DNA from: Mycolicibacterium smegmatis
GTDB taxonomy: Bacteria > Actinomycetota > Actinomycetes > Mycobacteriales > Mycobacteriaceae
Assembly: GCF_001457595.1 (NCBI RefSeq)
Contig: NZ_LN831039.1
Coordinates: 180,001 to 212,000 of the forward strand
Direction: 5' to 3'
DNA: 32,000 bases
Shown: piece after piece, positions 8,924 to 28,274 of the stretch
Layout: the number at the start of each line of letters is the position of its first letter
How positions within the stretch are numbered: the first letter of the stretch is position 1
Notes under the pieces: generated by a model
What the model saw: the letters and a program-made list of their open reading frames with translations, nothing else
What the model was told of the DNA's origin: nothing
Databases searched by the model: none
Position numbers and translations under genes: made by a program

Positions 8924-8926
8924 GGT

Positions 8927-10114: not shown

Positions 10115-10127
10115 GCATATTGTATGC
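10115..10127. promoter_or_regulatory. Palindrome GCATA-TTG-TATGC (site A of a recurring operator-like motif)
   Basis: Read directly, in the divergent pntAa / panE-like intergenic region. The minus-strand reading is ccTTGCATACAATATGCcg, which includes a TACAAT -10-like hexamer oriented toward pntAa. Confidence 0.5.
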
Positions 10128-10198
10128 AAGGATTAGGTGGATCTTAGCCCTGAATCAGCCTGACCGGGGGATATGGAATCACGCGGGCTGAGTTGGCA

Positions 10199-10212
10199 TA
10201 CAGAATACAAAC
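10199..10212 (+). promoter_or_regulatory. ATAC-N3-ATAC-AAA box (copy 1 of 4)
   Basis: ATACAGAATACAAA lies immediately 5' of the SD (AAGGAGG) of the panE-like gene. Confidence 0.35.
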
Positions 10213-10223
10213 AAGGAGGGCGT

Positions 10224-11237
10224 GTGAGAATTGCAGTTGTCGGCGCCGGCGCGATCGGTGCGTACTGGGGCGCCGCCATGCACCGTGGCGGGGCGGAAGT
10301 TCATCTGATCGCCCGCAATGCCCATCTACATGCGATGCGTGAGCACGGCGTGCGCGTGCTCAGCGACCGCGGCGACTTCGTCGCACACCCGAACGCCACG
10401 GACGATCCGCACGAGATCGGTCCGGTGGACTACGTCTTCCTGGGCCTCAAGGCCCACAGCTACCCGTCCTGCGGACCGCTGATCGAACCGCTGCTCGGCG
10501 AGCACACGGCCGTGCTGGCGGCGCAGAACGGCGTCCCGTGGTGGTACTTCCACGAACTGCAGGGTCCCTACCGCGGCCGCCGCATCGAGGCGGTCGACCC
10601 AGGCGGTGCGACGAGTGCTGTGCTCGCACCCGAGCGCGCGATCGGGTGCGTCGTGTACCCGGCCACCACGATCGAGGCGCCGGGCGTGATCCGCCACCTC
10701 GAGGGCACCCGGTTCTCGATCGGCGAACCGAGCGGCGAGATCTCGCAGCGGTGTATCGCCTTGAGCGAGGCCATGATCGCCGGTGGCCTCAAGGCGCCCG
10801 TGGAGGCCGATCTGCGCAGCGACATCTGGATCAAGCTCATGGGCAACGTGGCGTTCAACCCACTGAGCGCACTGACCAGGGCGACCATGGTCGAGATCTG
10901 CCAGAACCCGTACACGCGCCAGGTCGTGGTCCAGCTCATGGAGGAGACGCTCGACATCGCGTCGCGGCTGGGAGCCAAGCCCGACATCTCCATCGAGAAG
11001 CGCTTGCGTGGTGCCGAGAACGTGGGTCACCACAAGACATCGATGCTGCAGGACCTCGAAGCGGGCAAGCAGCTCGAGCTCGACGCGATCGTCACCGCCG
11101 TCGTGGAGATGGCCGACCTCACCGGTGCGCCTGCGCCCACGCTGCGCACCGTGCACGCCGCCACCGACCTGCTGGCACGCACGGCCGTGCCCGCCGCGGT
11201 GCCACAGGAGCAGGCACTCAAGCCGGCTCTTCGATAA
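10224..11237 (+). CDS. 2-dehydropantoate 2-reductase family (PanE/ApbA-like) NAD(P)H oxidoreductase
   Basis: GTG start preceded by AAGGAGG. There is an N-terminal Rossmann motif (IAVVGAGAIGAYWG) and a C-terminal ketopantoate-reductase-like helical domain (KTSMLQDLEAGKQLELDAI). The listed ORF start at 10173 lacks an SD. Confidence 0.8.
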   Translation: MRIAVVGAGAIGAYWGAAMHRGGAEVHLIARNAHLHAMREHGVRVLSDRGDFVAHPNATDDPHEIGPVDYVFLGLKAHSYPSCGPLIEPLLGEHTAVLAAQNGVPWWYFHELQGPYRGRRIEAVDPGGATSAVLAPERAIGCVVYPATTIEAPGVIRHLEGTRFSIGEPSGEISQRCIALSEAMIAGGLKAPVEADLRSDIWIKLMGNVAFNPLSALTRATMVEICQNPYTRQVVVQLMEETLDIASRLGAKPDISIEKRLRGAENVGHHKTSMLQDLEAGKQLELDAIVTAVVEMADLTGAPAPTLRTVHAATDLLARTAVPAAVPQEQALKPALR

Positions 11238-11247
11238 GGAGAAGAAA

Positions 11248-12681
11248 ATGGCGAATCGCCGCGCAAAGATCGTCTGCACGTTGGGCCCGGCCACGGCCAC
11301 GTCGTCGGTACTGACCGAACTCGTCGACGCCGGAATGGATGTCGCCCGGCTGAACTTCAGCCACAGCACCCACGCCGAGCACTCGGCGCTGTACGGCATG
11401 GTCCGGGAGATCGCCGCCCAGCGTGGCCGCGTGGTCGGCGTCCTCGCGGACCTGCAGGGGCCCAAGATCCGGCTGGGGTGTTTCGCCGACGGTCCCGTCG
11501 TATGGGCGACGGGCGAGCACGTCACGATCACCACGGAGGACTGCCCGGGTGACCACGACCGGGTCTCCACGACCTACGCGGGCCTGTCACAGGACGTGCG
11601 CGCGGGTGACCGGCTGTTGGTCGACGACGGGCGCGTGGATCTGCGCGTGGTGGCCGTCGACGGTCCCGACATCCGGTGCGAGGTCGTCGACGGCGGGCCG
11701 GTCAGCGACCACAAGGGGATATCGCTGCCCAACATCCCGGTGAGCGTTCCGCCGTTGTCGGACAAGGACATCGAGGATCTCAAGTTCGCGCTGGAGCTCG
11801 GCGCGGACATGATCGCGATGTCGTTCGTGCGCGCACCCGAGGAGGTCGAGCTCGCGCACAAGATCATGGACGAGGTGGGACGCCGGGTCCCGGTCATCGC
11901 GAAACTGGAGAAGCCTGAGGCGGTTTCGGACCTACCCGCGATCGTCGAGGCGTTCGACGGTCTCATGGTCGCGCGCGGCGATCTCGGCGTGGAGATGCCC
12001 CTGGAGCAGATCCCGCTGGTGCAGCGCCGCGCGATCGCCCTGTGCCGTCAGGCGGCCAAACCCGTGATCGTGGCGACGCAGATGCTCGATTCGATGGTGT
12101 CGGACCGCCGCCCGACACGTGCCGAGGTGTCCGACGTCGCCAACGCGGTGTTCGACAGGGCCGATGCGGTGATGCTCTCGGCCGAGACGAGTGTGGGCGC
12201 GGATCCGGCGCACGCCGTCGCCACCATGGCACGCATCGTCGTCGCCGCCGAGAGCGGTTCTGGCCGGGGCGAGACGCCCGAATCGGCGCTCGTGGAGGCC
12301 GTGAACGGCACGGACGCGGTGTTCGGTGACGCGATCGCGGTGGCGGCCTGCGAGGTGGGACGCCGGCTGGGCGCCGCGGCCCTGTGCTGCTTCACGCGCA
12401 CCGGTGACACGGCGCTGCGGTTGGCCCGGCAGCGGTCACCGCTGCCGCTGCTGGCCTTCGCGCACGACGACGAGGTGCGGGGGCGCCTGACGTTCTCGTG
12501 GGGTGTCGAGTCGGCGGTGCTGGCACCGACGGAGCTGGCCGAATCCATGCCGGGCGAGGTGTCGCGTGCGTTGCTGAGCATGGGCGCGTGCCACCCCGGC
12601 GATGTCGTGGTGGTCGTCTCCGGAAGCCGAAGCGGTGTCGCGGGGTACACCGATTCGGTCCGGGTGCTCCGTGTCGAGTGA
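11248..12681 (+). CDS. pyk: Pyruvate kinase (paralog)
   Basis: MANRRAKIVCTLGPAT..., NFSHS, DLQGPKIR, MVARGDLGVE and ATQMLDSM motifs. The ATG at 11248 is preceded by AAGGAGAAG and lies 10 nt after the panE-like stop. The ORF-track extension to 11008 overlaps the upstream gene and is rejected. Confidence 0.9.
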   Translation: MANRRAKIVCTLGPATATSSVLTELVDAGMDVARLNFSHSTHAEHSALYGMVREIAAQRGRVVGVLADLQGPKIRLGCFADGPVVWATGEHVTITTEDCPGDHDRVSTTYAGLSQDVRAGDRLLVDDGRVDLRVVAVDGPDIRCEVVDGGPVSDHKGISLPNIPVSVPPLSDKDIEDLKFALELGADMIAMSFVRAPEEVELAHKIMDEVGRRVPVIAKLEKPEAVSDLPAIVEAFDGLMVARGDLGVEMPLEQIPLVQRRAIALCRQAAKPVIVATQMLDSMVSDRRPTRAEVSDVANAVFDRADAVMLSAETSVGADPAHAVATMARIVVAAESGSGRGETPESALVEAVNGTDAVFGDAIAVAACEVGRRLGAAALCCFTRTGDTALRLARQRSPLPLLAFAHDDEVRGRLTFSWGVESAVLAPTELAESMPGEVSRALLSMGACHPGDVVVVVSGSRSGVAGYTDSVRVLRVE

Positions 12682-12722
12682 AGTCGATTGAGATCGTGAG
12701 AGCAGGTGTGGCGCAGGGTTGT

Positions 12723-13193: not shown

Positions 13194-13245
13194 GGGATTT
13201 ACCTCTTATCACGGCGCGGCATTGCGTACTGTGTCAGGATACCGA

Positions 13246-13260
13246 ATACTGCATACAAAA
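13246..13260 (+). promoter_or_regulatory. ATAC-N3-ATAC-AAAA box (copy 2 of 4)
   Basis: GAATACTGCATACAAAAGG at 13244-13262 matches 17 of 19 positions of GAATACAACATACAAAAGG upstream of fdhD (24585-24603). It lies in the PAS/LysR divergent region. A nearby ATTGCGTAC at 13231-13239 resembles the half-site of the palindrome motif. Confidence 0.35.
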
Positions 13261-13299
13261 GGGAACGGTCGGACAGGATCGGAGACCGAAAGGACGCTC

Positions 13300-14226
13300 A
13301 TGCTGTTGCGCCAGTTGGAGTACTTCGTCGCCGTGGCCCGGGAACGTCACTTCGCCAGGGCTGCCGAGGTCTGCTACGTGTCGCAACCGGCGCTGTCCAC
13401 AGCAATTGCCAAGCTCGAGCGCGAGCTCGACGTCACGCTGATCCACCGCGGCCAGAACTTCGAGGGCCTCACGCTCGAAGGCGAACGTCTCGTGGTGTGG
13501 GCCAAGAGGTTGCTGGCCGAGCACGACGGCCTCAAGGCCGAGGCGGCCGCGTTGCGCACCGGCATCTCCGGAACGCTACGGCTGGGCACCGGGCCCACGG
13601 TGTCGACGACGACGGCCATCCCCGTTGCGGCGTTCTGCAACCTGCACCCGAAGGCCAACGTCTCCATATCCTCCCGGCTGTCCTCGGCCGAATTGCTGCG
13701 ACAGCTCCGCGATTTCGAACTCGACGCGGCCATCGCCCATTTCGGGCCGGGGGACCGAGCCGGGCTCGAGGTGGTGCCGTTGTACAAGGAGCGGTACGTG
13801 CTGCTGGTCTCCGGAGATCAGCTGGCACCCGGTACGCGCGCCATCACGTGGTCCGACGCCGCGCAGTTGCCGCTGGCGCTGCTCGAGCCGCACATGCGGT
13901 TCCGGCAGTTCATCGACAAGGCCTTCGCCGAGAACGGCGTGACGCCGTCGCCGCAGGTCGAAACGGACTCGGTGGCATCGCTGTATGCCCTGGTGGCCAC
14001 CGGCGCCTGGGCGAGCGTCGTGCCCCACACGTGGCTGCGGGCCGTCCCCCAGCTGGGAGCGGCCAGAGCCGTGCGGCTCATCGAACCAGAGACCACAGCA
14101 CAGATCTCGCTCGCGATCCACGCCGGCCGCGGCTCCGCGGCCGCGCGCGCCTTCGTCAATGTCGCCGCAGGCGCCCGCCTGGACGATCAATTCGATCTGC
14201 AGTCAGAACACTGGCTGCTCAAGTGA
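13300..14226 (+). CDS. LysR family transcriptional regulator
   Basis: The N-terminal LysR HTH reads MLLRQLEYFVAVARERHFARAAEVCYVSQPALSTAIAKLERELDVTLIHR, followed by a C-terminal substrate-binding domain. The ATG at 13300 was chosen within the longer ORF 13012..14226. Confidence 0.85.
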   Translation: MLLRQLEYFVAVARERHFARAAEVCYVSQPALSTAIAKLERELDVTLIHRGQNFEGLTLEGERLVVWAKRLLAEHDGLKAEAAALRTGISGTLRLGTGPTVSTTTAIPVAAFCNLHPKANVSISSRLSSAELLRQLRDFELDAAIAHFGPGDRAGLEVVPLYKERYVLLVSGDQLAPGTRAITWSDAAQLPLALLEPHMRFRQFIDKAFAENGVTPSPQVETDSVASLYALVATGAWASVVPHTWLRAVPQLGAARAVRLIEPETTAQISLAIHAGRGSAAARAFVNVAAGARLDDQFDLQSEHWLLK

Positions 14227-14275
14227 ATGTCGACTGACTCCCCGTTGCTCAACGCCACATTTCTCGGACCAGGTG

Positions 14276-14290
14276 ATAACCGTCGTTTAT
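14276..14290. promoter_or_regulatory. Candidate LysR-type T-N11-A box
   Basis: ATAACCGTCGTTTAT (ATAA..TTAT dyad; T14277-N11-A14289) in the 159-bp region between the LysR gene and oxc. This is a pattern match only. Confidence 0.25.
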
Positions 14291-14385
14291 CGACCGGTTG
14301 AAGACAGGTCTTGGACTGGCTGAGCTGCAAGGTGAAAAGTCAGTCCTGGTAAGGGAATAACCCATCAGCTAGGAAGGCTCACATC

Positions 14386-16119
14386 ATGACCGTCGCTCCC
14401 ACGCGAGACACCGAGGCGGCGAGTACCGACGAGCCCGGCGCACTCACCGATGGCATCCATCTGGTCGTCGATGCGCTGAAGCTCAACGACGTACAGACCA
14501 TCTACGGGGTCGTCGGGATCCCGATCACCGATCTCGCTCGCCTCGCCCAGGCATCAGGCTTGCGCTACATCGGATTCCGGCACGAGAGCGACGCGGGACA
14601 CGCTGCGGCCGCCGCCGGCTTCCTCACCCAGAAGCCCGGCATCTGCCTGACGGTTTCGGCACCTGGCTTCCTCAACGGCCTTGTCGCTCTTGCCAATGCC
14701 ACCACCAACTGCTTCCCGATGGTCCAGATCTCGGGATCCAGTGAACGCCACCTGGTCGACCTGCAGCGCGGTGACTACGAGGAGATGGACCAACTGGCGG
14801 CGGCCAGGCTGTTCGCCAAGGCGGCCTACCGAGTATCCCGCGCCGAGGACATCGGACGCGGCATCGCACGTGCGATCCGCACGGCCGCATCGGGTCGGCC
14901 CGGCGGTGTCTACCTGGACATCCCGGCCGCGGTCCTCGGTGAGGTGATCGACGCGGAGAAGGCCAAGAAGACGCTGTGGCGCGTGGTCGATCCCGCACCC
15001 AAGCAGATGCCCGAGATCGACGCGGTCGACAAGGCCATCGAGCTGCTCGCAGGCGCCGAGCGCCCGCTGATCGTGCTGGGCAAGGGCGCCGCCTACGCGC
15101 AGGCCGACGACACCATCCGCGAGTTCGTCGAGAGCACCGGCATCCCCTATGTGCCGATGTCGATGGCCAAAGGCCTGCTGCCCGACGATCATCCGCAGTC
15201 CGCCGCGACGGCACGGTCGCTCGCGCTCAAGCGTGCAGACGTGGTCATGCTCGTCGGTGCCCGGCTGAACTGGCTTCTGGGACACGGCGATGCGCCGCAG
15301 TGGAACCCCGACGCCAAGTTCATCCAGGTCGACATCTCGGCCACGGAGATGGACAGCAACCAGCCCATCGCCGCACCCCTGGTCGGTGACATCAGCTCGG
15401 TGGTGGAGACGCTGCTGGAGCGCAGCAAGCCCGGCCAGATCAGCGTCGCCCCCGAGTGGCGTCAGGAGCTCGCGGCCAAGTCCGAGCAGAATGTCGCCAA
15501 GATGAGCGGCCGGCTGGAGGCCGCCCTCACGGCGCACCCGATGAAGTTCCTCGGCGCCCTGCAGGCCATCCGCGACGTGCTCGCCGACAACCCGCAGGTG
15601 TACGTGGTGAACGAGGGCGCCAACGCACTCGACCTGGCCCGCAACACCATCGGCATGCAGGTTCCGCGGCACCGGCTGGACAGCGGCACGTGGGGCGTGA
15701 TGGGCATCGGCATGGGCTACGCGATCGCCGCGGCCGTCGAGACCGGCGATCCGGTGGTCGCCATCGAAGGTGACAGCGCATTCGGGTTCAGCGGTATGGA
15801 ACTCGAGGCGATCTGCCGCTACAACCTTCCGATCGTCACGGTGATCCTCAACAACAGCGGTGTGTACCGCGGTGACGAGGCATCGGGTTCGACCGCGGAT
15901 CCCGCGCCGACGGCACTGCGCGCGCAGCACGAGTACATGATCAAGGCCTTCGGCGGCAAGGGATATCAGGCCACCACCCCCGACGAGGTGGCGGCGGCGC
16001 TGCGCGAGGCACTGGCCTCGGGACGTCCCGCGCTCATCGACTGCGTCATCGATCCGTCCGACGGCACCGAGAGCGGCAACATCGCGCATCTCAATCCCAA
16101 GGGCATCAGCACCAAGTGA
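14386..16119 (+). CDS. oxc: Oxalyl-CoA decarboxylase (ThDP-dependent)
   Basis: 577 aa with a ThDP-enzyme fold ([64 protein letters not shown]). Length, N-terminal sequence and adjacency to frc all match Oxc. Confidence 0.9.
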
Positions 16120-16187
16120 GTACCGGGGGCCGATCCCTCGAATCAACACGAACACACCGAAACACCAACAATGAAAGGAACTGTCTC

Positions 16188-17450
16188 ATGACAGAGCTAC
16201 CCCTCTCAGGGATCAAGGTGATCGACTTCACCGGTGTCCAGGCAGGACCGGCCTGCACCCAGATGCTGGCCTGGTACGGGGCCGACGTCCTCAAGGTCGA
16301 GCGTCCCGGTGGCGGCGACGTGACCCGTAAGCAGCTGCGGGACATCCCCGATGTCGACGCGCTGTACTTCACGATGCTCAACAGCAACAAGCGGTCGCTG
16401 GCCATCGACACCAAGTCGCCCGAGGGCCTCGAGGTCATGGAGAAGCTGATCCGCGACGCCGACGTGCTGGTGGAGAACTTCGCACCCGGTGCGCTGGACC
16501 GCATGGGGCTGTCGTGGGAGACCCTGCAGAAGTGGAACCCTCGGCTGATCTTCGGTTCGGTCAAGGGCTTCAACGACGACTCGACCTGGAACGACCTGAA
16601 GGTGTACGAGAACGTCGCACAGTGCGCCGGTGGCGCCGCGTCCACCACGGGCTTCTGGGATGGCCCGCCGACCGTCAGCGGTGCGGCGCTCGGTGACAGC
16701 AACACCGGTATGCACCTGCTGATCGGCATCCTGACCGCGCTGATCCAGCGCGACAAGACCGGCAAGGGCCAGAAGGTGTCGGCCTCGATGCAGGACGCCG
16801 TACTCAACCTGTGCCGTGTGAAGCTGCGTGACCAGCAGCGCCTGGAGGCCGTGGGCTACCTCGAGGAGTACCCGCAGTACCCGCACGGCGAGTTCGGCGA
16901 CACGGTTCCGCGTGGCGGCAACGCCGGCGGCGGCGGCCAGCCGGGCTGGGTGCTCAAGTGCAAGGGCTGGGAGACCGACCCCAACGCCTACATCTACTTC
17001 ACCATCCAGGAGCAGAACTGGGTCCGTACGGCCGAGGCCATCGGCCACCCGGAGTGGGCCGAGGATCCGGCGTACAACACCGCGAAGGCCCGTCAGGACA
17101 AGATCTTCGAGATCTTCGGCGAGATCGAGAAGTGGCTGGCCGACAAGACCAAGTACGAGGCCGTCGACATCCTGCGCAAGTGGGAGGTGCCGTGCGCCCC
17201 GGTGATGAGCATGAAGGAACTCGCGGTCGATCCGTCGCTGCGCAAGTCCGGAAGCATCGTCGAGGTGGACCAGAAGGGACGCGGTTCGTTCCTCACCGTC
17301 GGCAGCCCGGTCAAGTTCTCGGCCTTCCAGCCCGAGATCAAGGGTGCGCCGCTGCTCGGTGAGCACACCGACGAGGTGCTGGCCGGCCTGGGTTACGACG
17401 CCGACCAGATCGAAGAGTTCCACCGCAAGAAGATCGTCGTCGGTTCGTAG
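16188..17450 (+). CDS. frc: Formyl-CoA:oxalate CoA-transferase
   Basis: By my recollection it is near-colinear with E. coli YfdW / O. formigenes Frc: [88 protein letters not shown]. The ATG at 16188 follows GAAAGGAA. Confidence 0.92.
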
Positions 17451-17457
17451 CACTCGC

Positions 17458-17495
17458 ACACCGCCCCATGTCGCCTACCCGGCATGGGGCGGTGT
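17458..17495 (+). terminator. 13-bp perfect stem-loop between frc and fdsG (terminator or attenuator)
   Basis: ACACCGCCCCATG (17458-17470), a 12-nt loop, then CATGGGGCGGTGT (17483-17495). The U-tail is poor (tcgtc), as is common for mycobacterial terminators. Confidence 0.45.
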
Positions 17496-17552
17496 TCGTC
17501 ACCGAAAACGATTCCGCCCGACCGGTTTCGCCCCGTCTGCTGGAGGAAGCCC

Positions 17553-18038
17553 ATGAAACGCACGACCACCGGGGAGACCAGCGTGGCGACCCTGGTCCGT
17601 GAGATCGCCGCCGACCATCGCGACCACCGCGGGCCGCTGCTGCCGATCCTGCACGCGGTCCAGGAGAGGCTGGGATGTGTGCCCGCCGAGGCCGTCCCCG
17701 TGCTCGCCGAAGAACTCAACCTGTCCCGTGCCGATGTGCACGGGGTCATCACCTTCTACCACGACTTCCGCTCGGAACCTGCCGGGCGCACGACGGTCCG
17801 CGTGTGCCGCGCCGAGGCCTGCCAGGCCCTGGGCGCCTCGCGGCTGGTCGCACATCTGCAGGACCGGCACGGGGTGCAACTGGGGGACACCACCGATGAC
17901 GGAACGCTCACGGCCGAGCAGGTCTTCTGCCTCGGCAACTGCGCACTGGGCCCGTCGGCCCAGGTGGACGGCAGGCTCTACGGACGGCTCGACGAGGCGC
18001 GCCTGTCGGCCCTCATCGATTCGGCGGTGACGCGATGA
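17553..18038 (+). CDS. fdsG: NAD-dependent formate dehydrogenase gamma subunit (NuoE-like 2Fe-2S)
   Basis: The ATG at 17553 is preceded by GGAGGAAG. NuoE/thioredoxin-like ferredoxin pattern (VCRAEAC ... CLGNCALGPS). There is an ATGA overlap with the next gene. Confidence 0.85.
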   Translation: MKRTTTGETSVATLVREIAADHRDHRGPLLPILHAVQERLGCVPAEAVPVLAEELNLSRADVHGVITFYHDFRSEPAGRTTVRVCRAEACQALGASRLVAHLQDRHGVQLGDTTDDGTLTAEQVFCLGNCALGPSAQVDGRLYGRLDEARLSALIDSAVTR

Positions 18039-19633: not shown

Positions 19634-22449
19634 CACTGCTCTCAGAACCCGATTTCGGTACACCCGCTAAGCCGGGACCGGCGACGGTCACCGTCGAGGT
19701 CGACGGCATCCCGGTGTCCGTCCCGGAAGGCACATCGGTGATGCGCGCGGCCGCCGAGGCGGGCATCGACGTACCCAAGTTGTGCGCGACCGACCGGCTC
19801 GACGCGTTCGGCTCGTGCCGGCTGTGCCTGGTCGAGATCGACGGCCGCCGTGGCACACCCGCGTCGTGCACCACGCCCGTGGCCGAGGGCATGGTGGTGC
19901 ACACCCAGACCCCCAAGGTCGCCAAGCTCCGCGAGAGCGTCATGGAGCTCTACATCTCCGACCACCCGCTGGACTGCCTGACCTGCCCGGCCAACGGCGA
20001 CTGCGAACTGCAGGACATGGCAGGCGTGGTCGGGTTGCGGCAGGTGCGCTACGGCTACGAGGGCGCCAACCACTTCGACGCCGAACCCGACCACAGCAAC
20101 CCGTATTTCGACTTCGACCCGTCCAAGTGCATCGCGTGCTCGCGGTGCGTGCGGGCGTGCGGCGAGATCCAGGGGACCTTCGCGCTCACCATCGAGGGCC
20201 GGGGCTTCGAGTCGAAGGTCTCTCCCGGTGCCGGCGAGCTGTTCATGGACTCCGAATGCGTGTCGTGCGGCGCCTGTGTGCAGGCGTGCCCGACGGCGAC
20301 GCTGCAGGAACGCTCCGTGGTGGAGCTCGGCATCCCCACCCGGTCGGTCACCACCACATGTGCGTACTGCGGCGTCGGTTGCTCGTTCAAGGCCGAACTG
20401 CGCGGTGACGAGCTGGTACGCATGGTGCCGCAGAAGGCCGGCGGCGCCAACGAGGGTCACTCATGTGTCAAGGGCCGCTTCGCGTTCGGGTATGCGACAC
20501 ACCCGGACCGTGTGCTGCGCCCGATGGTCCGCGACAAGATCACCGACCCGTGGCGCGAGGTCGAGTGGGACGAGGCGATCAACACCGTCGCGCGCGGCAT
20601 GCAGGAGATCTCGCAACGCCACGGCGCCGGCGCGATCGGCGCGATCACATCATCGCGGTGCACCAACGAAGAGGTGTACGTCGTCCAGAAGATGGTCCGC
20701 GCCGCATTCGGCAACAACAACGTCGACACGTGTGCCCGCGTGTGCCACTCACCCACGGGCTACGGCCTCAAGCAGACCTTCGGTGAATCCGCGGGCACGC
20801 AGGACTTCCGGTCGGTCGCCGAGGCCGACGTGATCGTGGTGATCGGCGCCAACCCGACCGACGGGCACCCGGTGTTCGCGTCGCGCATGAAGCAGCGGAT
20901 CCGGGAGGGGGCGCGGCTGGTGGTCGTCGACCCCCGCCGCATCGACCTGGTGCGCTCGCCACACATCGAGGCCGACCATCACCTGCAGTTGCGGCCGGGC
21001 ACCAACGTCGCGGTGGTCAATGCCATGGCACACGTGGTGGTGACCGAGGGTCTCACCGACGCGTCGTTCGTGGCCGAGCGGTGTGAGGGCTTCGAGGAGT
21101 GGGCCGAGTTCATCGCACGCGAGGAGAACAGCCCTGAGGCGGTCGAGGCGATCACGGGTGTGCCCGCAGAGGAACTGCGCGCCGCGGCCCGGCTGTACGC
21201 GCTGGCCCCGAACGCCGCGATCTACTACGGCCTCGGGGTGACCGAGCACAGCCAGGGCTCCACCATGGTGATGGGCATGGCGAACCTGGCGATGGCGTGC
21301 GGCAACATCGGCCGCGACGGCGTCGGGGTGAACCCGCTGCGCGGCCAGAACAACGTCCAGGGTTCGTGCGACATGGGTTCGTTCCCGCACGAGCTGCCCG
21401 GCTACCGGCACGTGTCCGACGACGCGGTCCGCCAGGTGTTCGAGAACCTGTGGGGCACCGAGCTGTTGGCCGAGCCGGGGCTGCGCATCCCCAACATGTT
21501 CGACGCCGCGATCGAGGGCAGCTTCCGTGGTCTGTTCGTGCACGGCGAGGACATCGCCCAGTCCGACCCGAACGTCAAGCACGTCCTCGCGGCGCTGGAG
21601 TCGATGGAACTCGTGGTGGTGCAGGACCTGTTCCTCAACGAGACGTCGAAGTACGCGCATGTGTTCCTGCCCGGTGCGTCGTTCCTGGAGAAGGACGGCA
21701 CCTTCACCAACGCCGAGCGCCGCATCAACCGCGTGCGTGCGGTGATGAAGCCCAAGAGCGGTATGCACGAGTGGGACATCGTCTGCCGGATCGCGACGGC
21801 GATGGGTTATCCCATGCACTACGACCACCCCAGCCAGATCATGGACGAGATCGCCGCGCTCACACCCACGTTCACGGGTGTGTCGTTCGACAAGCTGGAC
21901 CAGCTGGGCAGCATCCAGTGGCCGTGTGACGAAGAGGCTCCCGAGGGCACGCCCATCATGCACGTCGACGCGTTCACCAGGGGACTCGGCAGGTTCGTGC
22001 CCACGCCGTTCGTGCCGACCGACGAGCGCAGCACCAGGCGGTTCCCGCTGATCCTCACCACGGGCCGAATCCTCAGTCAGTACAACGTCGGAGCGCAGAC
22101 CCGCCGTACGGCGAACATCGCCTGGCATGCCGAGGACGTGCTGGAGATCCATCCGCACGACGCCGAGGTGCGCGGGATCGCCGACGGTGATCTGGTCACC
22201 CTGGCCAGCCGTGTCGGGGAGACCACGCTGCACGCGCAGATCTCCGACCGGATGCCGACCGGCGTCGTCTACACCACGTTCCACTATCCCGTAACGGGGG
22301 CGAACGTCGTGACCACGGACAGCTCCGACTGGGCCACGAACTGCCCCGAGTACAAGGTGACCGCCGTGCAGGTCGCCCTCGCGCCTCCTTCGGCCCGCCA
22401 GGCCGAAGCCAGGGTCGATGAACTCCCCGAGACAGAACTGGTGAGGTGA
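19630..22449 (+). CDS. fdsA: NAD-dependent formate dehydrogenase alpha subunit (molybdopterin, Cys-type)
   Basis: The ATG at 19630 overlaps the fdsB stop (ATGA). There is an N-terminal 2Fe-2S and several 4Fe-4S motifs (CRLCLVEI, HPLDCLTCPANGDCELQ, CIACSRCVRAC, CVSCGACVQACP, CAYCGVGCSF). The active-site context CARVCHSP carries a TGC Cys codon at 20743-20745, not TGA. The ORF-track extension to 19360 is rejected. Confidence 0.93.
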   Translation: MTLLSEPDFGTPAKPGPATVTVEVDGIPVSVPEGTSVMRAAAEAGIDVPKLCATDRLDAFGSCRLCLVEIDGRRGTPASCTTPVAEGMVVHTQTPKVAKLRESVMELYISDHPLDCLTCPANGDCELQDMAGVVGLRQVRYGYEGANHFDAEPDHSNPYFDFDPSKCIACSRCVRACGEIQGTFALTIEGRGFESKVSPGAGELFMDSECVSCGACVQACPTATLQERSVVELGIPTRSVTTTCAYCGVGCSFKAELRGDELVRMVPQKAGGANEGHSCVKGRFAFGYATHPDRVLRPMVRDKITDPWREVEWDEAINTVARGMQEISQRHGAGAIGAITSSRCTNEEVYVVQKMVRAAFGNNNVDTCARVCHSPTGYGLKQTFGESAGTQDFRSVAEADVIVVIGANPTDGHPVFASRMKQRIREGARLVVVDPRRIDLVRSPHIEADHHLQLRPGTNVAVVNAMAHVVVTEGLTDASFVAERCEGFEEWAEFIAREENSPEAVEAITGVPAEELRAAARLYALAPNAAIYYGLGVTEHSQGSTMVMGMANLAMACGNIGRDGVGVNPLRGQNNVQGSCDMGSFPHELPGYRHVSDDAVRQVFENLWGTELLAEPGLRIPNMFDAAIEGSFRGLFVHGEDIAQSDPNVKHVLAALESMELVVVQDLFLNETSKYAHVFLPGASFLEKDGTFTNAERRINRVRAVMKPKSGMHEWDIVCRIATAMGYPMHYDHPSQIMDEIAALTPTFTGVSFDKLDQLGSIQWPCDEEAPEGTPIMHVDAFTRGLGRFVPTPFVPTDERSTRRFPLILTTGRILSQYNVGAQTRRTANIAWHAEDVLEIHPHDAEVRGIADGDLVTLASRVGETTLHAQISDRMPTGVVYTTFHYPVTGANVVTTDSSDWATNCPEYKVTAVQVALAPPSARQAEARVDELPETELVR

Positions 22450-22450
22450 C

Positions 22451-22675
22451 ATGCAGATTCACGAAGCCCCCACGACGGCGACCGAGATCAAGCTGATCAA
22501 CCAGATCGCCGCACACTTCGGTTACCTGCCCGAGGACAAGGCGGCCGCGGCCGTGGCCGACCACGTCCGGCGGTTCTGGGAGCCACGGATGCAGCGCAGG
22601 CTGTTCAGCCTGATCTACGCCGACGCCAGCGAGCTCACACCGGTGGCCATGGCTGCCGCATCGCAGTTACGCTGA
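22451..22675 (+). CDS. fdsD: Formate dehydrogenase delta subunit
   Basis: 74-aa ORF 1 nt after fdsA. Its sequence (LINQIAAHFGYLPEDKAAAAVADHVRRFWEPRM) resembles the FdsD family. Confidence 0.75.
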   Translation: MQIHEAPTTATEIKLINQIAAHFGYLPEDKAAAAVADHVRRFWEPRMQRRLFSLIYADASELTPVAMAAASQLR

Positions 22676-22686
22676 CCCGCAACGAC

Positions 22687-22721: not shown

Positions 22722-22737
22722 TCTTTTGTCCGGTGTG

Positions 22738-23049: not shown

Positions 23050-23094
23050 GGCTCTCCTTGAAAGGGGTTGTCAGGGTTTACAGGTGGACGAAGA

Positions 23095-24438: not shown

Positions 24439-24454
24439 AATCCTGCTCCTAATT

Positions 24455-24467
24455 GCATACCGTATGC
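24455..24467. promoter_or_regulatory. Palindrome GCATA-CCG-TATGC (site B)
   Basis: aaTTGCATACCGTATGCac lies 17-29 nt upstream of the MFS paralog-1 ATG, just 5' of its SD, in the divergent region shared with fdhD. The minus-strand reading contains a TACGGT -10-like hexamer. Confidence 0.5.
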
Positions 24468-24586
24468 ACAAGACTAAGTGACCTGGGTCACGTTGTCCAC
24501 AGGGGCAGCCAGATTCATGTGGTGTCCAGGTAACTCCAAGGACAGTTCGCTGAGCGGCGCGCTGACCATATCCGGAGTTACAGTGA

Positions 24587-24601
24587 ATACAACATACAAA
24601 A
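24587..24601 (+). promoter_or_regulatory. ATAC-N3-ATAC-AAAA box (copy 3 of 4)
   Basis: GAATACAACATACAAAAGGAG lies directly upstream of, and fused to, the fdhD SD. Confidence 0.35.
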
Positions 24602-24611
24602 GGAGTGTCAG

Positions 24612-25454: not shown

Positions 25455-25455
25455 T

Positions 25456-25498
25456 CCGCCCGGGCCTGGATGTAAGGCCCGATGTCAGGCCTGGGCGG
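25456..25498 (+). terminator. Stem-loop between convergent fdhD and the GntR gene
   Basis: CCGCCCGGGCC (25456-25466) pairs with GGCCTGGGCGG (25488-25498), giving 11 bp with one G-U on the + strand RNA and a 21-nt loop. There is no U-tract. Confidence 0.3.
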
Positions 25499-26213
25499 CC
25501 TTGGCCATGCGCTCCTCGTGGTAGGTCTGCCGCGTGCGGTCGGTGTGCCGCCGCATGATGTCGGTCGCCTGTTCCACGTCATGGGCCGCGATCGCCTTGA
25601 TCAGTTCGGCGTGCTCGGACCACGCATCGTGTCCGCGCGGGCGTGCGATGGGCAGGTAGTACCAGCGCCACTTACGTTCGACGAGGCTGATGTGGTCGGC
25701 GAGCACCTGGTTCCCGGCCAGCTCGGTGATCGCGGCGTGCAGCGCCGCGTTGGCCTCCACCAGGCCCTCGGAATTGTTGGTGGTGAGTGCGTTGAGCCCG
25801 TCCTGCTGAAGCTCCCACAACCGGTTCACGTCCTCGGGTGTCGCGCGTTCGGCGGCCAGGGCGGCCGAGTAGGTCTCAAGGACCGTGCGGACCCCGAGCA
25901 GCTGGTCCACCTCCTCCTCGGAGGGGACGTGGACGAACGCGCCCTGGGCCGGGCGGAGTTCGATCCAGCCGTCGGTCTGCAGGCGCTGCAGCGCCTCGCG
26001 GACGGGCTGGCGGCTGACGCCCAGGTATTCGGCGAGCTCGGCCTCCACGAGGTGCTGGCCGCGCTGCAGGGTGCCCTGGATGATCATCTCGATGATCGCG
26101 TCGTATACGGCCTGGCGTAGGGGAGCGGGCCGTACGACGCGAGGTGCGGCGTCGCCCAGCATGTTTGACGGCGACGCCTTCTTGGGTTTGCCGGCGGGAT
26201 ACGGACGGGACAT
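25485..26213 (-). CDS. GntR family transcriptional regulator (FadR/FCD subfamily)
   Basis: Winged-helix region LRQAVYDAIIEMIIQGTLQRGQHLVEAELAEYLGVSRQPVREALQRLQTDGWIELRPAQGAFV, followed by an all-helical FCD-like C-terminal domain. The ATG at 26213 has AAGGAG 8 nt upstream. The 623-aa ORF-track extension is rejected. Confidence 0.85.
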   Translation of the reverse strand: MSRPYPAGKPKKASPSNMLGDAAPRVVRPAPLRQAVYDAIIEMIIQGTLQRGQHLVEAELAEYLGVSRQPVREALQRLQTDGWIELRPAQGAFVHVPSEEEVDQLLGVRTVLETYSAALAAERATPEDVNRLWELQQDGLNALTTNNSEGLVEANAALHAAITELAGNQVLADHISLVERKWRWYYLPIARPRGHDAWSEHAELIKAIAAHDVEQATDIMRRHTDRTRQTYHEERMAKAAQA

Positions 26214-26333
26214 GGCTGGCGGCTCCTTAGCCTCTGAGGTTGCTCCAAGCTTACCGGTTTTTGGTATGCAATGAACCGTGACCCTCTGAATGTCTGCGGC
26301 GCGTCGTCGCACTTGGTGGGGTACCTCGTACGC

Positions 26334-26383
26334 ACAGAAAACAACCCCGGGCGCGGCGGTCATGTGACTCACCGCGCCCGGGG
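26334..26383 (-). terminator. Rho-independent terminator after MFS paralog 2
   Basis: A perfect 12-bp stem: CCCCGGGCGCGG at 26345-26356 and CCGCGCCCGGGG at 26372-26383. On the minus-strand transcript it is followed by TTGTTTTCTGT. Confidence 0.7.
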
Positions 26384-26413
26384 CCGTTTCAACTGTGGTG
26401 TCGCGCCTGGCCT

Positions 26414-27817
26414 CTAGTCGGCCGCCAGCGACGCCTCCTTTGCCTGGCTGGAGTGCCGAGCCGGATCCTCGGCGGCCAGCCGCTCGGATTTCGGCAGCTT
26501 CGGCTGCTTCAGCAGCAGGGTGAGGAAGGCGCACGCGACGCCCACCGAACCGGCGATGATGAACGCCGCACCGTAACCCCAGGCGCTCACCACGACCGAA
26601 CCCATACCGGCACCCACCAGACCCGAGACCAGCTTGGAGCTGTACACCAGGCCGTAGTTGGTGGCGTTGTTGTTCTCGCCGAAGTAGTCGGCGGTCATCG
26701 CCGCGAACAGCGGGAAGATCGCGCCGCCACCGAAGCCCGAGACCATCGAGGCCAGCAGGAACAGCGGCATGTTGCCGATGGATCCCGAGAAGTACACCGC
26801 GTACTGCGCCAGGCCGAGCACCAGACACACCAGGATCAGCGTGTCGCGGCGGCCGAAGCGGTCGGAGATCCAGCCGATCACGCCGCGGCCGGTGCCGTTG
26901 ATGATGGCCTTGAGGCTCATCGCCAGGGCCACGATGCCGCCTGCGAAGCCCATCTCCTTGCCGAAGGGCACCTGCATGGCGATGCCGAAGATGTTGATGC
27001 CCGCCGTGCACAGCAGGACGAACCACATCAGGGGCAGGATGCCGGTCTTGATGGCCTCCATCGGCGTGAACTGCTTGACGGCCGGCGGGTTCTTGCGCAG
27101 GGCCCGTGCGATGCGCGGGTCGGACGCGGCGCCCAGCGGGTCGACATGCGGCGGCCACCAGTTCTTCGGCGGGTCCTTGAAGAAGAAGCCGCTCACGGCC
27201 ACCAGGCCGGCCAGGAAGACGCCTACCGCGAACAGGACTCCCTGGTAGTTGGCGAGATCCATGTACGACGTGAAGATGAAGATGAAGGGCACCGAGCCGT
27301 AGGCGAAGCCGCCGTTGACGAAGCCGGTCTTGCCGCCTTTGCGTTCGGGATACCACTTACCCACCATGTTCACGCAGGTGGCGTATACGAAGCCGGCCGC
27401 GCCGCCACCGAAGAAGCTGAATCCGAGGTAGGCGAAGAACACGTTCGGCGAGTAGGCCAGCGCCAGGTAACCCATCAGGGATCCCGCCGCACCGAGCATC
27501 ATGGCCGCGCGTGCCGACAGCTTGCCGCTCTCGCGGAGCTTGCCTGCCGGGAAGGCGACCGCGGCCTGGAAGAGGACCCAGGCGCCCAGCAGCCAGAAGA
27601 TGTGCGAGCCATGCCAGCCGTGTGCGTCGGCCAGCGTGTCCTCGGCGGAAGTGAAGGCGTACTCCGAGGAGCTGATCGCCATCATCGAGATCCACGGCAG
27701 CCAGACCATCCAGGCCCGGGAGCGTCCCAGGATGTCGCGATCGGTCTCGCCGATCCGGTACACCCGGCCGTTGTCGTCGACCACCTCGCGGTAGGTCGGC
27801 TGAGCTGAAGAGGTCAT
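26414..27817 (-). CDS. MFS transporter, oxalate/formate antiporter (OFA)-like, paralog 2
   Basis: 467 aa and polytopic. It contains YRIGETDRDILGRSRAWMVWLPW, GKWYPERKGGKTGFVNGGFAYGSVPFIFIF and DYFGENNNATNYGLVYSSKL. By eye it is highly similar to paralog 3. Confidence 0.88.
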   Translation of the reverse strand: MTSSAQPTYREVVDDNGRVYRIGETDRDILGRSRAWMVWLPWISMMAISSSEYAFTSAEDTLADAHGWHGSHIFWLLGAWVLFQAAVAFPAGKLRESGKLSARAAMMLGAAGSLMGYLALAYSPNVFFAYLGFSFFGGGAAGFVYATCVNMVGKWYPERKGGKTGFVNGGFAYGSVPFIFIFTSYMDLANYQGVLFAVGVFLAGLVAVSGFFFKDPPKNWWPPHVDPLGAASDPRIARALRKNPPAVKQFTPMEAIKTGILPLMWFVLLCTAGINIFGIAMQVPFGKEMGFAGGIVALAMSLKAIINGTGRGVIGWISDRFGRRDTLILVCLVLGLAQYAVYFSGSIGNMPLFLLASMVSGFGGGAIFPLFAAMTADYFGENNNATNYGLVYSSKLVSGLVGAGMGSVVVSAWGYGAAFIIAGSVGVACAFLTLLLKQPKLPKSERLAAEDPARHSSQAKEASLAAD

Positions 27818-27950
27818 GCGCGCCGAACCTCTCGATCAGGGGTCGGCCGGCAGGGGCCTGACCTGTGGATTCTGGATATTGCATACAGATTCATGTCGGG
27901 TAACCAATCGATCAGTGGGGCAACACGTGACGACGATCACATCGCAAGGT

Positions 27951-27964
27951 ATACGACATACAAA
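27951..27964 (+). promoter_or_regulatory. ATAC-N3-ATAC-AAA box (copy 4 of 4)
   Basis: ATACGACATACAAA inside the long MFS2/frc2 intergenic region. Confidence 0.3.
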
Positions 27965-28261
27965 TCTGTGCGCAAGGTCAAATCGCGCTGTGAATCCGCT
28001 GGAGGTTCCGGATCGTCGACTTGACGCGCGTCCAAAAGCCTGTGACCTCAGCAGATGCAAACCTTGAAAAATGCTGTGAATGAAGAATATTCGTCCTTGC
28101 GGAGGAAACCAAGAGGGTTGGATGGACGCAGAGGGTGTCGCTGTGGGCAACCTGTGAATGCGCTGGGCCGATGCGTCGGAGCGTCCCCGGAATTGGCCGT
28201 CACATAGATCTCTCCGAACTCTGGACAAGCCTGTGTTACGTGGGACACACTTTCGATGAAC

Positions 28262-28274
28262 GCATACGGTATGC
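28262..28274. promoter_or_regulatory. Palindrome GCATA-CGG-TATGC (site C)
   Basis: The minus-strand reading gaTTGCATACCGTATGCg contains the same 15-mer, TTGCATACCGTATGC, as site B. It lies about 85 nt upstream of the frc2 ATG. An extra ATTGCAT half-site follows at 28284-28290, then an 8-1-8 palindrome ATCGGGGT-T-ACCCCGAT at 28289-28305. Confidence 0.5.

What the first reader, a model, noticed from the sequence alone, without database searches (positions are those of the whole stretch)
10115..28274. Recurring AT-rich palindrome GCATA-N3-TATGC in three divergent promoter regions: a candidate operator linking pnt/panE-pyk with the oxalate genes
The same 13-bp dyad occurs at three places:
- 10115-10127 (GCATATTGTATGC), between pntAa and the panE-like gene
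- 24455-24467 (GCATACCGTATGC), between MFS paralog 1 and fdhD
- 28262-28274 (GCATACGGTATGC), upstream of frc2

Sites B and C share the 15-mer TTGCATACCGTATGC on opposite strands.

Half-sites of the form TTGCATAC / GTATGCAA occur at:
- 26265-26273, about 55 nt upstream of the GntR gene, which suggests autoregulation
- 27879-27886, about 62 nt upstream of MFS paralog 2
- 28284-28290
- in degenerate form (ATTGCGTAC) at 13231-13239, in the PAS/LysR divergent region

I found no copy inside any coding region. For scale, a fixed 10-nt pattern is expected about 0.03 times in 32 kb at equal base frequencies, and less often for an AT-rich pattern in this GC-rich DNA.

Each site overlaps a -10-like hexamer or lies just 5' of an SD, which fits a repressor operator. 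The FCD-type GntR regulator at 25485-26213 is the obvious candidate binder; the LysR protein is an alternative. I do not recognise this motif as a described mycobacterial operator.
Basis: partly seen in the sequence, partly recalled or inferred. Interest (0 to 1): 0.7.

Follow-up and report, generated by a model that had tools for sequence, protein, structure and literature searches.

The report
Operator sites of the RoxY repressor
The repeated AT-rich palindrome is real and is almost certainly the DNA site where a local GntR-type repressor of Mycolicibacterium smegmatis, already named RoxY, shuts off a cluster of genes for using oxalate; this is an ordinary repressor-operator system, but its site and full gene set appear undescribed.

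Summary
GCATA-N3-TATGC occurs exactly three times (10115, 24455, 28262), against 0 in shuffles.

The window is M. smegmatis mc2 155, MSMEG_0144-0171. The full element is TTGCATAC-N-GTATGCAA.

- Conservation: it sits at the orthologous promoters in 46 mycobacterial species and 80 metagenome loci. MFS1 38/38, frc2 35/35, panE 45/45; internal controls pyk 0/32, fdsB 0/27. Flanks are not conserved.
- Position: published transcription starts put the sites on promoter cores. frc2 +3..+19; panE -27..-11; pntAa -20..-36. A lone half-site lies at -23..-30 of the GntR gene's own promoter.
- Co-regulation: published RNA-seq shows pnt-thiC, panE-pyk, oxyS-oxc-frc-fds and frc2 rising together.
- Regulator: the GntR/FCD gene (MSMEG_0166) is already published as RoxY, repressor of oxyS, which is the LysR gene here. 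I could not read that paper, so I cannot say whether it defined the site.

New here:
- a consensus for the site;
- a second site before panE;
- tandem-repeat variants at oxyS, fdhD and MFS2;
- a reading of the regulon as oxalate catabolism and assimilation.

This is a new member of a known kind, of moderate interest.

The parts
10113..10129 (.). Operator O1 (CGGCATATTGTATGCAA) shared by the divergent pntAa and panE-like promoters. It lies at -27..-11 of the panE TSS (10140, +) and -20..-36 of the pntAa TSS (10093, -).
   Evidence: TSSs from Martini 2019 Table_1. Orthologs carry TTGCATATTGTATGCAA or TCGCATACTGTATGCAA at the same place. panE 45/45 and pntAa 27/29 upstream regions have a site.
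10194..10210 (+). Operator O2 (TGGCATACAGAATACAA), a degenerate dyad in the panE 5' UTR directly before the SD (10213-10219). The start codon GTG is at 10224.
   Evidence: 10.0 bits. In many orthologs this position holds a full dyad, e.g. TTGCATACAGTATGCGA followed by GGAGG. 22 of 45 close orthologs have two sites.
13240..13262 (+). Tandem-heptad variant (GGATACC GAATACT GCATACA) over the predicted -10 (AATACT, 13245-13250) and start region of the oxyS (MSMEG_0156, LysR) promoter. It also lies at -11..-33 of the MSMEG_0155 TSS (13229, -).
   Evidence: 13242-13258, 9.9 bits. Conserved as GGATAnC GnATACT GCATACA in 12 distinct orthologous promoters. oxyS is the published RoxY target. The oxyS TSS is predicted, not mapped.
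13222..13229 (+). It is most simply the -35 (TTGCGT) of the oxyS promoter, 17 bp from AATACT.
   Evidence: ATTGCG is conserved in orthologs. Assignment as the -35 is inferred.
24453..24469 (.). Operator (TTGCATACCGTATGCAC) at the predicted start site of MFS1 (MSMEG_0164), between the -10 and the SD. The promoter has -35 TGGACA (24494-24499) and -10 TAGTCT (24471-24476), both read on the - strand.
   Evidence: 38 of 38 orthologous MFS1 upstream regions have the site. Core columns carry about 2 bits and flanks near 0; TGGACA-17-TAnnnT is conserved. No TSS was mapped for MFS1 under standard growth, as expected if it is repressed.
24579..24599 (+). fdhD (MSMEG_0165) promoter or leader with tandem ATAC heptads (TACAGT GAATACA ACATACA) just before the SD.
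   Evidence: 4.9 bits, weak. Orthologs with a separate fdhD promoter carry TATACTG AGTACGA CATACAC. Function is inferred.
25485..26213 (-). roxY (MSMEG_0166), a GntR-family regulator with an FCD domain and the proposed binder. Its TSS is at 26241 (-).
   Evidence: Pfam GntR and FCD domains. Identity with MSMEG_0166. Named RoxY, repressor of oxyS. Placed in the FadR subfamily with no predicted operator.
26264..26271 (-). Lone half-site TTGCATAC in the spacer of the roxY promoter (-30..-23), followed by the invariant GAAA..CTGTAnnnT. The -10 is TAAGCT at 26248-26253.
   Evidence: Invariant in 44 of 46 species. TSS 191573 corresponds to window 26241.
27879..27886 (-). Lone half-site (GTATGCAA on the MFS2 strand) in the MFS2 5' leader, at +53..+60 of TSS 27938.
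   Evidence: Conserved as GTATGCAATAT in orthologs. Role unknown.
27947..27966 (-). Tandem variant in the MFS2 (MSMEG_0167) promoter. It reads TTGTATGTCGTATACC on the MFS2 strand, spanning the spacer and the -10 (TACCTT), about -28..-9 of TSS 27938.
   Evidence: GGATTGTATGTAGTATACC is nearly invariant in about 20 species. TSS.
28260..28276 (.). Operator (ACGCATACGGTATGCAA) at +3..+19 of the mapped frc2 (MSMEG_0168) TSS at 28258. The promoter has -35 TGGACA (28222-28227) and -10 CACACT (28246-28251).
   Evidence: TSS 193590. 35 of 35 orthologous frc2 upstream regions have the site. Footprint.
5746..10009 (-). Target unit pntAa-pntAb-pntB-thiC (MSMEG_0152-0149).
   Evidence: Pfam. Up 24-39 fold together with the oxalate genes in RNA-seq.
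10224..12681 (+). Target unit of the panE-like reductase (MSMEG_0153; proposed oxalyl-CoA reductase) and pyruvate kinase (MSMEG_0154).
   Evidence: Pfam and NCBIfam. Up 16-17 fold. panE-like lies next to frc, oxc and the GntR gene in distant loci.
13300..22675 (+). Target unit oxyS(LysR)-oxc-frc1-fdsGBAD (MSMEG_0156-0162).
   Evidence: Pfam and NCBIfam equivalogs for oxc. Up 14-54 fold.

Best explanation
**What it is.** The dyad TTGCATAC-N-GTATGCAA is the operator of RoxY (MSMEG_0166), the FadR-subfamily GntR/FCD repressor encoded at 25485-26213.

**How it works (inferred).**
- RoxY dimers bind the operator and block RNA polymerase or early transcription.
- At MFS1 and frc2 the operator sits on the start site, immediately downstream of a conserved TGGACA-17/18-(-10) promoter.
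- Between pntAa and panE one operator covers the -10 of one promoter and the -35 of the other. A second operator lies before the panE SD.
- At oxyS, fdhD and MFS2 the same GCATAC/GTAT half-site occurs as tandem 7-bp repeats over the -10.
- A single half-site in the spacer of the roxY promoter gives weak autoregulation.
- An unidentified effector of the FCD domain relieves repression. Plausible candidates are oxalate, oxalyl-CoA, formyl-CoA, glyoxylate or formate.

**The regulon reads as a pathway.**
- Uptake: the MFS transporters.
- Activation and decarboxylation: Frc and Oxc, with ThiC supplying the thiamine cofactor.
- Formate oxidation to NADH: FdsGBAD and FdhD.
- NADH to NADPH: PntAB.
- NADPH-dependent reduction of oxalyl-CoA to glyoxylate: the PanE-like enzyme.
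- Lower glycolysis: Pyk.

**Status of each step.**
- Shown here: motif significance, conservation, and position relative to mapped starts.
- Shown by others: co-expression, and RoxY repressing oxyS.
- Inferred: RoxY binding to this exact motif, the effector, and the PanE-like enzyme's activity.
For: - Statistics: 3 exact dyads against 0 expected. The matrix hits are almost all intergenic.
- Footprinting: core columns carry about 2 bits while flanks are near 0, across 46 species.
- Site presence: MFS1 38/38, frc2 35/35, panE 45/45 (22 with two sites), pntAa 27/29; internal genes pyk 0/32 and fdsB 0/27.
- Specificity: of 188 hits of at least 15 bits in 1.28 Mb of related loci, 174 lie within 350 nt upstream of mapped cluster genes.
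- Mapped TSSs place the sites on promoter cores.
- The half-site in the roxY promoter is invariant in 44 of 46 species.
- In rearranged distant loci a GntR homologue lies divergently next to panE with two or three sites between them.
- RNA-seq shows MSMEG_0149-0154, 0156-0162 and 0168 as one co-induced set; a similar set appears.
- RoxY is published as a repressor of oxyS, and the oxyS promoter carries a conserved variant of the motif over its -10.
- In Mycobacterium sp. Root135 a dyad-like site precedes a tartronate-semialdehyde reductase and glyoxylate carboligase operon.
Against: - No binding experiment was done here, and the one paper that tested RoxY binding could not be read.
- The dyad does not fit the canonical FadR-subfamily operator form t.GT.N.AC.a. 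At its centre AC precedes GT.
- The oxyS site scores only 9.9 bits, close to the null 95th percentile of 9.2.
- Each strong promoter also carries a second conserved palindrome (GTGAyC-N2-4-rTCAC) whose binder is unknown. The assignment of RoxY to the first motif rests mainly on the roxY promoter half-site and on co-occurrence.
- All comparison loci were chosen through cluster genes, so a genome-wide specificity test is missing.
- MFS1, fdhD and MFS2 are not in the 4-fold RNA-seq list.
Confidence: 0.8

Rival explanations
1. The dyad is bound by the LysR-type regulator OxyS (MSMEG_0156) rather than by RoxY. OxyS would then coordinate the cluster.
For: OxyS is encoded in the cluster and is co-induced with it. 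LysR proteins often control adjacent catabolic operons; FdsR of Cupriavidus necator for the fds operon is an example from my own knowledge.
Against: - The footprinted OxyS box is a GC-rich T-N11-A motif, unlike this AT-rich N1-spaced dyad.
- Dyads occur next to GntR-panE-frc2 in contigs with no LysR gene detected.
- The invariant half-site sits in the roxY promoter, not only near oxyS.
Confidence: 0.05
2. The dyad is the site of another, unlinked transcription factor, such as a global regulator. RoxY would instead bind the second palindrome (GTGAyC..rTCAC) or only the oxyS promoter.
For: - Two conserved palindromes share the MFS1, frc2 and MFS2 promoters.
- The canonical GntR GT..AC order is not met by the dyad.
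- The GTGA-N6-TCAC core resembles the Crp consensus TGTGA-N6-TCACA.
Against: - The roxY promoter and the pntAa/panE region carry the first motif but no GTGA-N6-TCAC.
- The oxyS promoter, the published RoxY target, carries the ATAC-type motif.
- Site occurrence is confined to this gene set in 1.28 Mb of related loci.
Confidence: 0.1
3. The element acts in RNA, as a small 5' UTR hairpin or an sRNA (F6) target next to the SD, and controls translation or stability.
For: - At frc2, MFS1 and panE O2 the dyad is transcribed and lies close to the SD.
- Deletion of sRNA F6 raises exactly these units.
Against: - O1 at pntAa/panE and the roxY half-site lie upstream of mapped starts and are not transcribed.
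- The hairpin is weak (-3.7 and -4.4 kcal/mol) and not better than shuffles. The whole frc2 leader has z = 0.30.
- Conservation is of base identity, including the loop and unpaired flanks, with no compensatory changes.
- There is no Rfam family in the window.
- The F6 authors found a direct target only in MSMEG_4640.
Confidence: 0.03

Closest known systems
RoxY (MSMEG_0166) as repressor of oxyS in M. smegmatis (Daugherty et al. 2011, J Bacteriol 193:6824)
   Same: It is the same protein and the same cluster. It is a repressor acting on the oxyS promoter, which here carries a conserved variant of the motif over its -10.
   Different: In the accessible literature RoxY is framed as an oxidative-stress regulator with oxyS as its target. 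None of the open papers that cite it gives an operator sequence, and no held paper contains the 13-mers. The strong dyads at frc2, MFS1 and pntAa/panE, the autoregulatory half-site and the oxalate reading are not mentioned there. I could not read the original paper.
FadR-subfamily GntR repressors with palindromic operators (FadR, PdhR, LldR, GlcC; Rigali et al. 2002 consensus)
   Same: - A winged-helix GntR domain plus an FCD effector domain.
- A short AT-rich inverted repeat on promoter cores of neighbouring catabolic genes.
- Autoregulation, and expected relief by a small-molecule effector.
   Different: The canonical operators read ..GT-N-AC.. (for example TGGT...ACCA; see the list). Here the half-sites face the other way (CATAC-N-GTATG). 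No NCBIfam equivalog reaches its cut-off.
E. coli NanR and its (GGTATA)3 tandem-repeat operator
   Same: NanR is an FCD-type GntR regulator. Its recognised unit contains GTAT, as does the reverse complement of the ATAC heptads here, and it is arranged as direct repeats over the promoter. RoxY also has an N-terminal extension of about 30 residues before the HTH. NanR is among the detectable structural relatives. The NanR repeat sequence and its N-terminal arm are from my own knowledge.
   Different: RoxY is not a NanR orthologue (83 bits against a cut-off of 260). Its strongest sites are inverted, not direct. The repeat period is 7 bp. Cooperative multi-dimer binding is untested.
PanE2 oxalyl-CoA reductase route of Methylorubrum extorquens (Schneider et al. 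2012)
   Same: A PanE/ApbA-family reductase is genetically tied to oxc and frc and is expected to reduce oxalyl-CoA to glyoxylate with NADPH. The review cites this route.
   Different: The activity of MSMEG_0153 is untested. The coupling to PntAB and ThiC in one regulon is inferred here.

Membership tests
GntR family, FadR subfamily (FCD) repressor-operator system | N-terminal GntR winged helix-turn-helix domain in the candidate binder | tested here: met
   PF00392, E = 5.2e-20, residues 33-94.
GntR family, FadR subfamily (FCD) repressor-operator system | C-terminal all-helical FCD effector domain | tested here: met
   PF07729, E = 3.9e-24. Classified as FadR subfamily by Vindal 2007. Remote matches to solved FCD regulators.
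GntR family, FadR subfamily (FCD) repressor-operator system | Short inverted-repeat operators on promoter cores of adjacent target genes, conserved with the regulator | tested here: met
GntR family, FadR subfamily (FCD) repressor-operator system | Operator fits the subfamily consensus t.GT.N(0-3).AC.a | tested here: not met
   The centre reads CATAC-N-GTATG, so AC comes before GT. Compare the canonical predicted sites listed.
GntR family, FadR subfamily (FCD) repressor-operator system | Site in the regulator's own promoter (autoregulation) | tested here: inconclusive
   Only a single invariant half-site is present, at -30..-23 of the mapped roxY TSS. There is no full site in 0 of 44 mycobacterial orthologs, but 15 of 24 distant homologues have one.
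GntR family, FadR subfamily (FCD) repressor-operator system | Direct, sequence-specific binding of the protein to the motif, released by an effector | not testable with these tools
   This needs EMSA or footprinting. RoxY binding to the oxyS promoter is reported in a paper I could not open.
NanR-type tandem-repeat operator | Two or three direct repeats of a GTAT-containing unit over the promoter | tested here: met
   oxyS carries GGATACC GAATACT GCATACA. MFS2 carries GTATGTA GTATACC. fdhD carries TATACTG AGTACGA CATACAC.
NanR-type tandem-repeat operator | Regulator is a NanR orthologue | tested here: not met
   NCBIfam NanR subfamily scores 83.3 bits against a cut-off of 260.
LysR-type (OxyS) T-N11-A box | Interrupted dyad with T-N11-A spacing; GC-rich for OxyS | tested here: not met
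   The dyad is AT-rich with a 1-nt gap. The OxyS box is described.
Crp/FNR site TGTGA-N6-TCACA | GTGA and TCAC half-sites 6 bp apart | tested here: not met
   This does not apply to the dyad. A separate conserved palindrome in the same promoters has this core.
Structured cis-regulatory RNA (riboswitch or leader hairpin) | Stable or covarying structure, or a match to a known family | tested here: not met
   No Rfam hit. Folding is no better than shuffles. Two sites are not transcribed.

The most novel reading that the evidence does not exclude
RoxY and 'OxyS' are misfiled as oxidative-stress regulators. Together they form the control circuit of a mycobacterial oxalotrophy regulon that joins three functions: oxalate import and breakdown, NADH-to-NADPH conversion by PntAB, and a PanE-like oxalyl-CoA reductase.

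RoxY would read one GCATAC half-site in three architectures set on a 7-bp register: an inverted dyad, tandem repeats, and a lone half-site. Occupancy would be graded, tight on transporters and enzymes and loose on its own gene. That implies NanR-like multi-dimer assembly rather than simple dimer-palindrome binding.
Probability: 0.35. Interest if true: 0.55.

Novelty: new member of a known kind. Interest (0 to 1): 0.4.

Why it matters
- Regulation of bacterial oxalate genes is described as understudied, and a consensus operator makes it directly testable in a tractable model organism.
- It explains why an identical block of genes (MSMEG_0149-0162, 0168) rises together in unrelated mutants. The RoxY/OxyS 'oxidative stress' phenotypes may be secondary to carbon and redox metabolism.
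- It gives a rationale for a dedicated PntAB-ThiC-PanE-Pyk module attached to oxalate breakdown.
- M. tuberculosis keeps oxyS next to oxcA (my own knowledge), so the reading may carry over to the pathogen.
- The mechanism itself, a local GntR repressor and its operator, is conventional.

Tried and rejected
1. I first treated the ATAC heptads before the panE, fdhD and oxyS SDs as a separate third motif. At panE the orthologs show a decayed full dyad. At oxyS, MFS2 and fdhD the tandem form is itself conserved, so I kept it as a variant architecture, not a new motif.
2. RNA-element reading: rejected.
3. LysR/OxyS as binder: rejected on motif type.
4. A crude GC3-ORF mask for coding versus non-coding hits mislabelled known promoter sites as coding. 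I replaced it with distance to tblastn-mapped gene starts.
5. The consensus promoter/terminator scan found nothing in 26200-26430, although a TSS is mapped there. The scan is too strict for these promoters.
6. The first matrix script timed out.
7. Three attempts to open Daugherty 2011 failed.
8. Literature searches for the motif strings and for oxalate plus GntR found nothing relevant.

Full report
**1. Observation**

GCATANNNTATGC occurs exactly three times in the 32-kb window, at 10115, 24455 and 28262. None of 100 dinucleotide-preserving shuffles gave a match.

TTGCATAC occurs six times against 0.22 expected. Extended to TTGCATACNGTATGCAA with up to 3 mismatches, a fourth site appears at 10194-10210.

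- The TTGCATAC copy at 9194-9201 lies inside the pntAa coding region.
- ATTGCGTAC is at 13221-13229, not 13231-13239.

**2. Where we are**

The GntR protein is identical to one encoded in Mycolicibacterium smegmatis mc2 155 (CP000480.1). Window coordinates equal genome coordinates minus 165331 up to about 22449, and minus 165332 from about 22738; there is a 1-bp indel between them.

Pfam and NCBIfam, together with the published gene table, give this map:

| Locus tag | Gene |
|---|---|
| MSMEG_0149-0152 | thiC-pntB-pntAb-pntAa (- strand) |
| 0153-0154 | panE-like, pyk |
| 0155 | PAS protein |
| 0156 | LysR (oxyS) |
| 0157 | oxc (equivalog, 1037 bits) |
| 0158 | frc1 |
| 0159-0162 | fdsGBAD |
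| 0164 | MFS1 |
| 0165 | fdhD |
| 0166 | GntR/FCD |
| 0167 | MFS2 |
| 0168 | frc2 (equivalog, 636 bits) |
| 0170 | MFS3 |

**3. Conservation**

I fetched 46 loci from different Mycobacterium and Mycolicibacterium species through the GntR orthologue (59-85% identity). I fetched 80 metagenome loci through the panE-like protein (70-100% identity).

- Both dyads near the GntR gene are present at the orthologous places in essentially every species.
- When the sequences are anchored on the site, the core CATAC-N-GTATG has about 2 bits per column, while the surrounding intergenic DNA falls to near 0. The exception is a conserved promoter.
- I built a weight matrix from 108 distinct non-smegmatis sites and counted regions with a site of at least 10 bits:

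| Upstream region | With a site |
|---|---|
| MFS1 | 38 of 38 |
| frc2 | 35 of 35 |
| panE (at least 80% identity) | 45 of 45, of which 22 have two sites |
| pntAa | 27 of 29 |
| pyk (operon-internal control) | 0 of 32 |
| fdsB (operon-internal control) | 0 of 27 |

- In 1.28 Mb of related DNA, 174 of 188 hits of at least 15 bits lie within 350 nt upstream of a mapped cluster gene.
- In the window itself the three dyads score 29.5, 27.5 and 20.8 bits. The 95th percentile of the null maximum is 9.2. Eleven of the top 12 hits are intergenic.

**4. Position relative to promoters**

Martini et al. 2019 mapped transcription starts genome-wide. In window coordinates they are:

| Gene | TSS |
|---|---|
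| pntAa | 10093 (-) |
| panE | 10140 (+) |
| MSMEG_0155 | 13229 (-) |
| roxY | 26241 (-) |
| MFS2 | 27938 and 28077 (-) |
| frc2 | 28258 (+) |

All are purines on the transcribed strand.

- frc2: the dyad is at +3..+19, directly after a conserved TGGACA-18-CACACT promoter.
- pntAa/panE: the dyad covers -27..-11 of panE and -20..-36 of pntAa.
- roxY: the half-site is at -30..-23, in the spacer.
- MFS1: a conserved TGGACA-17-TAnnnT promoter places the dyad over the predicted start, followed by the SD.
- No start was detected for MFS1, fdhD or oxc under standard growth. The roxY start is the strongest of the set. This fits tight repression of the targets and loose autoregulation.

**5. Variant architectures**

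- panE: the proximal M. smegmatis site (TGGCATACAGAATACAA) corresponds in many orthologs to a perfect dyad immediately before the SD.
- oxyS: the promoter carries three tandem heptads (GGATACC GAATACT GCATACA) over the predicted -10. They are conserved as GGATAnC GnATACT GCATACA in 12 orthologs.
- MFS2: the promoter carries GGATTGTATGTAGTATACC, nearly invariant in about 20 species.
- fdhD: where it has its own promoter, it carries TATACTG AGTACGA CATACAC.
- Lone half-sites are conserved in the roxY promoter and in the MFS2 leader.

**6. Who binds**

- The GntR/FCD protein is the published RoxY, 'repressor of oxyS'. I could not open that paper.
- An earlier survey of M. smegmatis GntR proteins found no operator for it.
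- No held paper contains the dyad strings.
- In more distant loci a 53-66% identical GntR gene lies divergently next to panE, with a half-site and two dyads between them. So the motif travels with the regulator through gene rearrangements.
- The OxyS box is GC-rich T-N11-A, which argues against the LysR alternative.
- The RNA alternative fails. Two sites are not transcribed, folding is weak and Rfam finds nothing.

**7. Co-regulation and meaning**

- In an F6 sRNA deletion strain, 14 of the 15 differentially expressed genes are MSMEG_0149-0154, 0156-0162 and 0168, up 14-54 fold.
- CrsL depletion raises a similar set, including 0167-0168 and 0170-0171.
- The units carrying the motif therefore behave as one regulon in vivo.
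- Their functions fit a pathway (established functions for most steps; inferred for the PanE-like enzyme):
  - transport of oxalate;
  - CoA activation and decarboxylation (Frc, Oxc; TPP supplied via ThiC);
  - formate oxidation (FdsGBAD, FdhD);
  - transhydrogenation (PntAB);
  - NADPH-dependent reduction of oxalyl-CoA to glyoxylate by the PanE-like enzyme, as known for PanE2 of Methylorubrum (cited);
  - pyruvate kinase.
- In Mycobacterium sp. Root135 a dyad-like site precedes a tartronate-semialdehyde reductase and glyoxylate carboligase operon. This extends the regulon to the glycerate pathway.

**8. Comparison and verdict**

This works like a classical FadR-subfamily GntR repressor with local operators. 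The domain tests are met. The canonical GT..AC operator form is not met, because the half-sites are everted. The tandem-repeat variants recall NanR, but RoxY is not a NanR orthologue.

The regulator and one of its targets are known. The consensus, the full target set, the promoter geometry and the oxalate reading appear to be new, subject to what the unread 2011 paper contains.

I rate the finding as a new member of a known kind, interest 0.4. Confidence is 0.8 that the dyad is the RoxY operator and above 0.95 that it is a functional cis-regulatory DNA element.

Noticed in passing
window 24478-24491 (GTGACCTGGGTCAC), 28233-28248 (GTGTTACGTGGGACAC), 27927-27940 (GTGATCGTCGTCAC): A second conserved near-palindrome, GTGAyC-N2-4-rTCAC, sits in the -35/-10 spacer of the MFS1 and frc2 promoters and on the MFS2 start site. 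It is conserved across species (GTGATCGCGATCAC and similar). Its core resembles a Crp site, but the inner bases are also symmetric. The binder is unknown.
   Followed up: partly
window 5746-10009 and the RNA-seq of PMC8583896: The genes up-regulated in the F6 sRNA deletion strain are almost exactly the transcription units that carry the motif. This suggests the mutant's phenotype runs through RoxY or its inducer, or through a secondary change, rather than through direct sRNA targeting.
   Followed up: partly
window 5746-7173: thiC is the last gene of the pntAa-pntAb-pntB operon and overlaps pntB by 4 nt. No TPP riboswitch is detectable by Rfam in the window. This is an unusual placement that fits supply of thiamine diphosphate for Oxc.
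   Followed up: partly
L019:53-69 and L019:465-4693 (also L020-L022, L053): In related species a dyad-like site (CCGGATATTGTATGCAA) lies upstream of a tartronate-semialdehyde reductase (with an N-terminal extension of about 250 residues) and a glyoxylate carboligase gene, with an IclR/BhcR-like regulator downstream.
   Followed up: partly
L024, L025, L033, L036, L037, L039, L041-L047, L049-L051, L054, L055: Many species carry a second GntR paralogue (54-65% identical to RoxY) next to MFS3 and the carboligase gene. M. smegmatis lacks it at this position.
   Followed up: no
window 26340-26390: A long GC-rich inverted repeat (CCCCGGGCGCGG...CCGCGCCCGGGG) lies between the end of MFS2 and the roxY promoter. 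On the - strand it is followed by TTGTTTTCTG, so it looks like a terminator separating MFS2 from roxY. The simple terminator scan did not call it.
   Followed up: partly
window 28293-28309: A perfect palindrome, ATCGGGGT-T-ACCCCGAT, lies in the frc2 5' leader. The sequence is not conserved, but several orthologs have a different small hairpin at a similar distance downstream of the dyad.
   Followed up: no
window between 22449 and 22738: There is a 1-bp length difference between the window and the coordinates of CP000480.1 used by Martini 2019. Gene coordinates shift from offset 165331 to 165332.
   Followed up: partly
window 12723-13193: MSMEG_0155, divergent from oxyS, is a stand-alone PAS-domain protein (TIGR00229). 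Its mapped start (13229) lies inside the oxyS promoter region, so RoxY sites there would affect both genes.
   Followed up: no
window 25485-26213 (residues 1-32 of RoxY): RoxY has a basic N-terminal extension (MSRPYPAGKPKK...) before the winged helix, partly conserved in orthologs. NanR uses such an arm for cooperative binding to repeats (my own knowledge).
   Followed up: no
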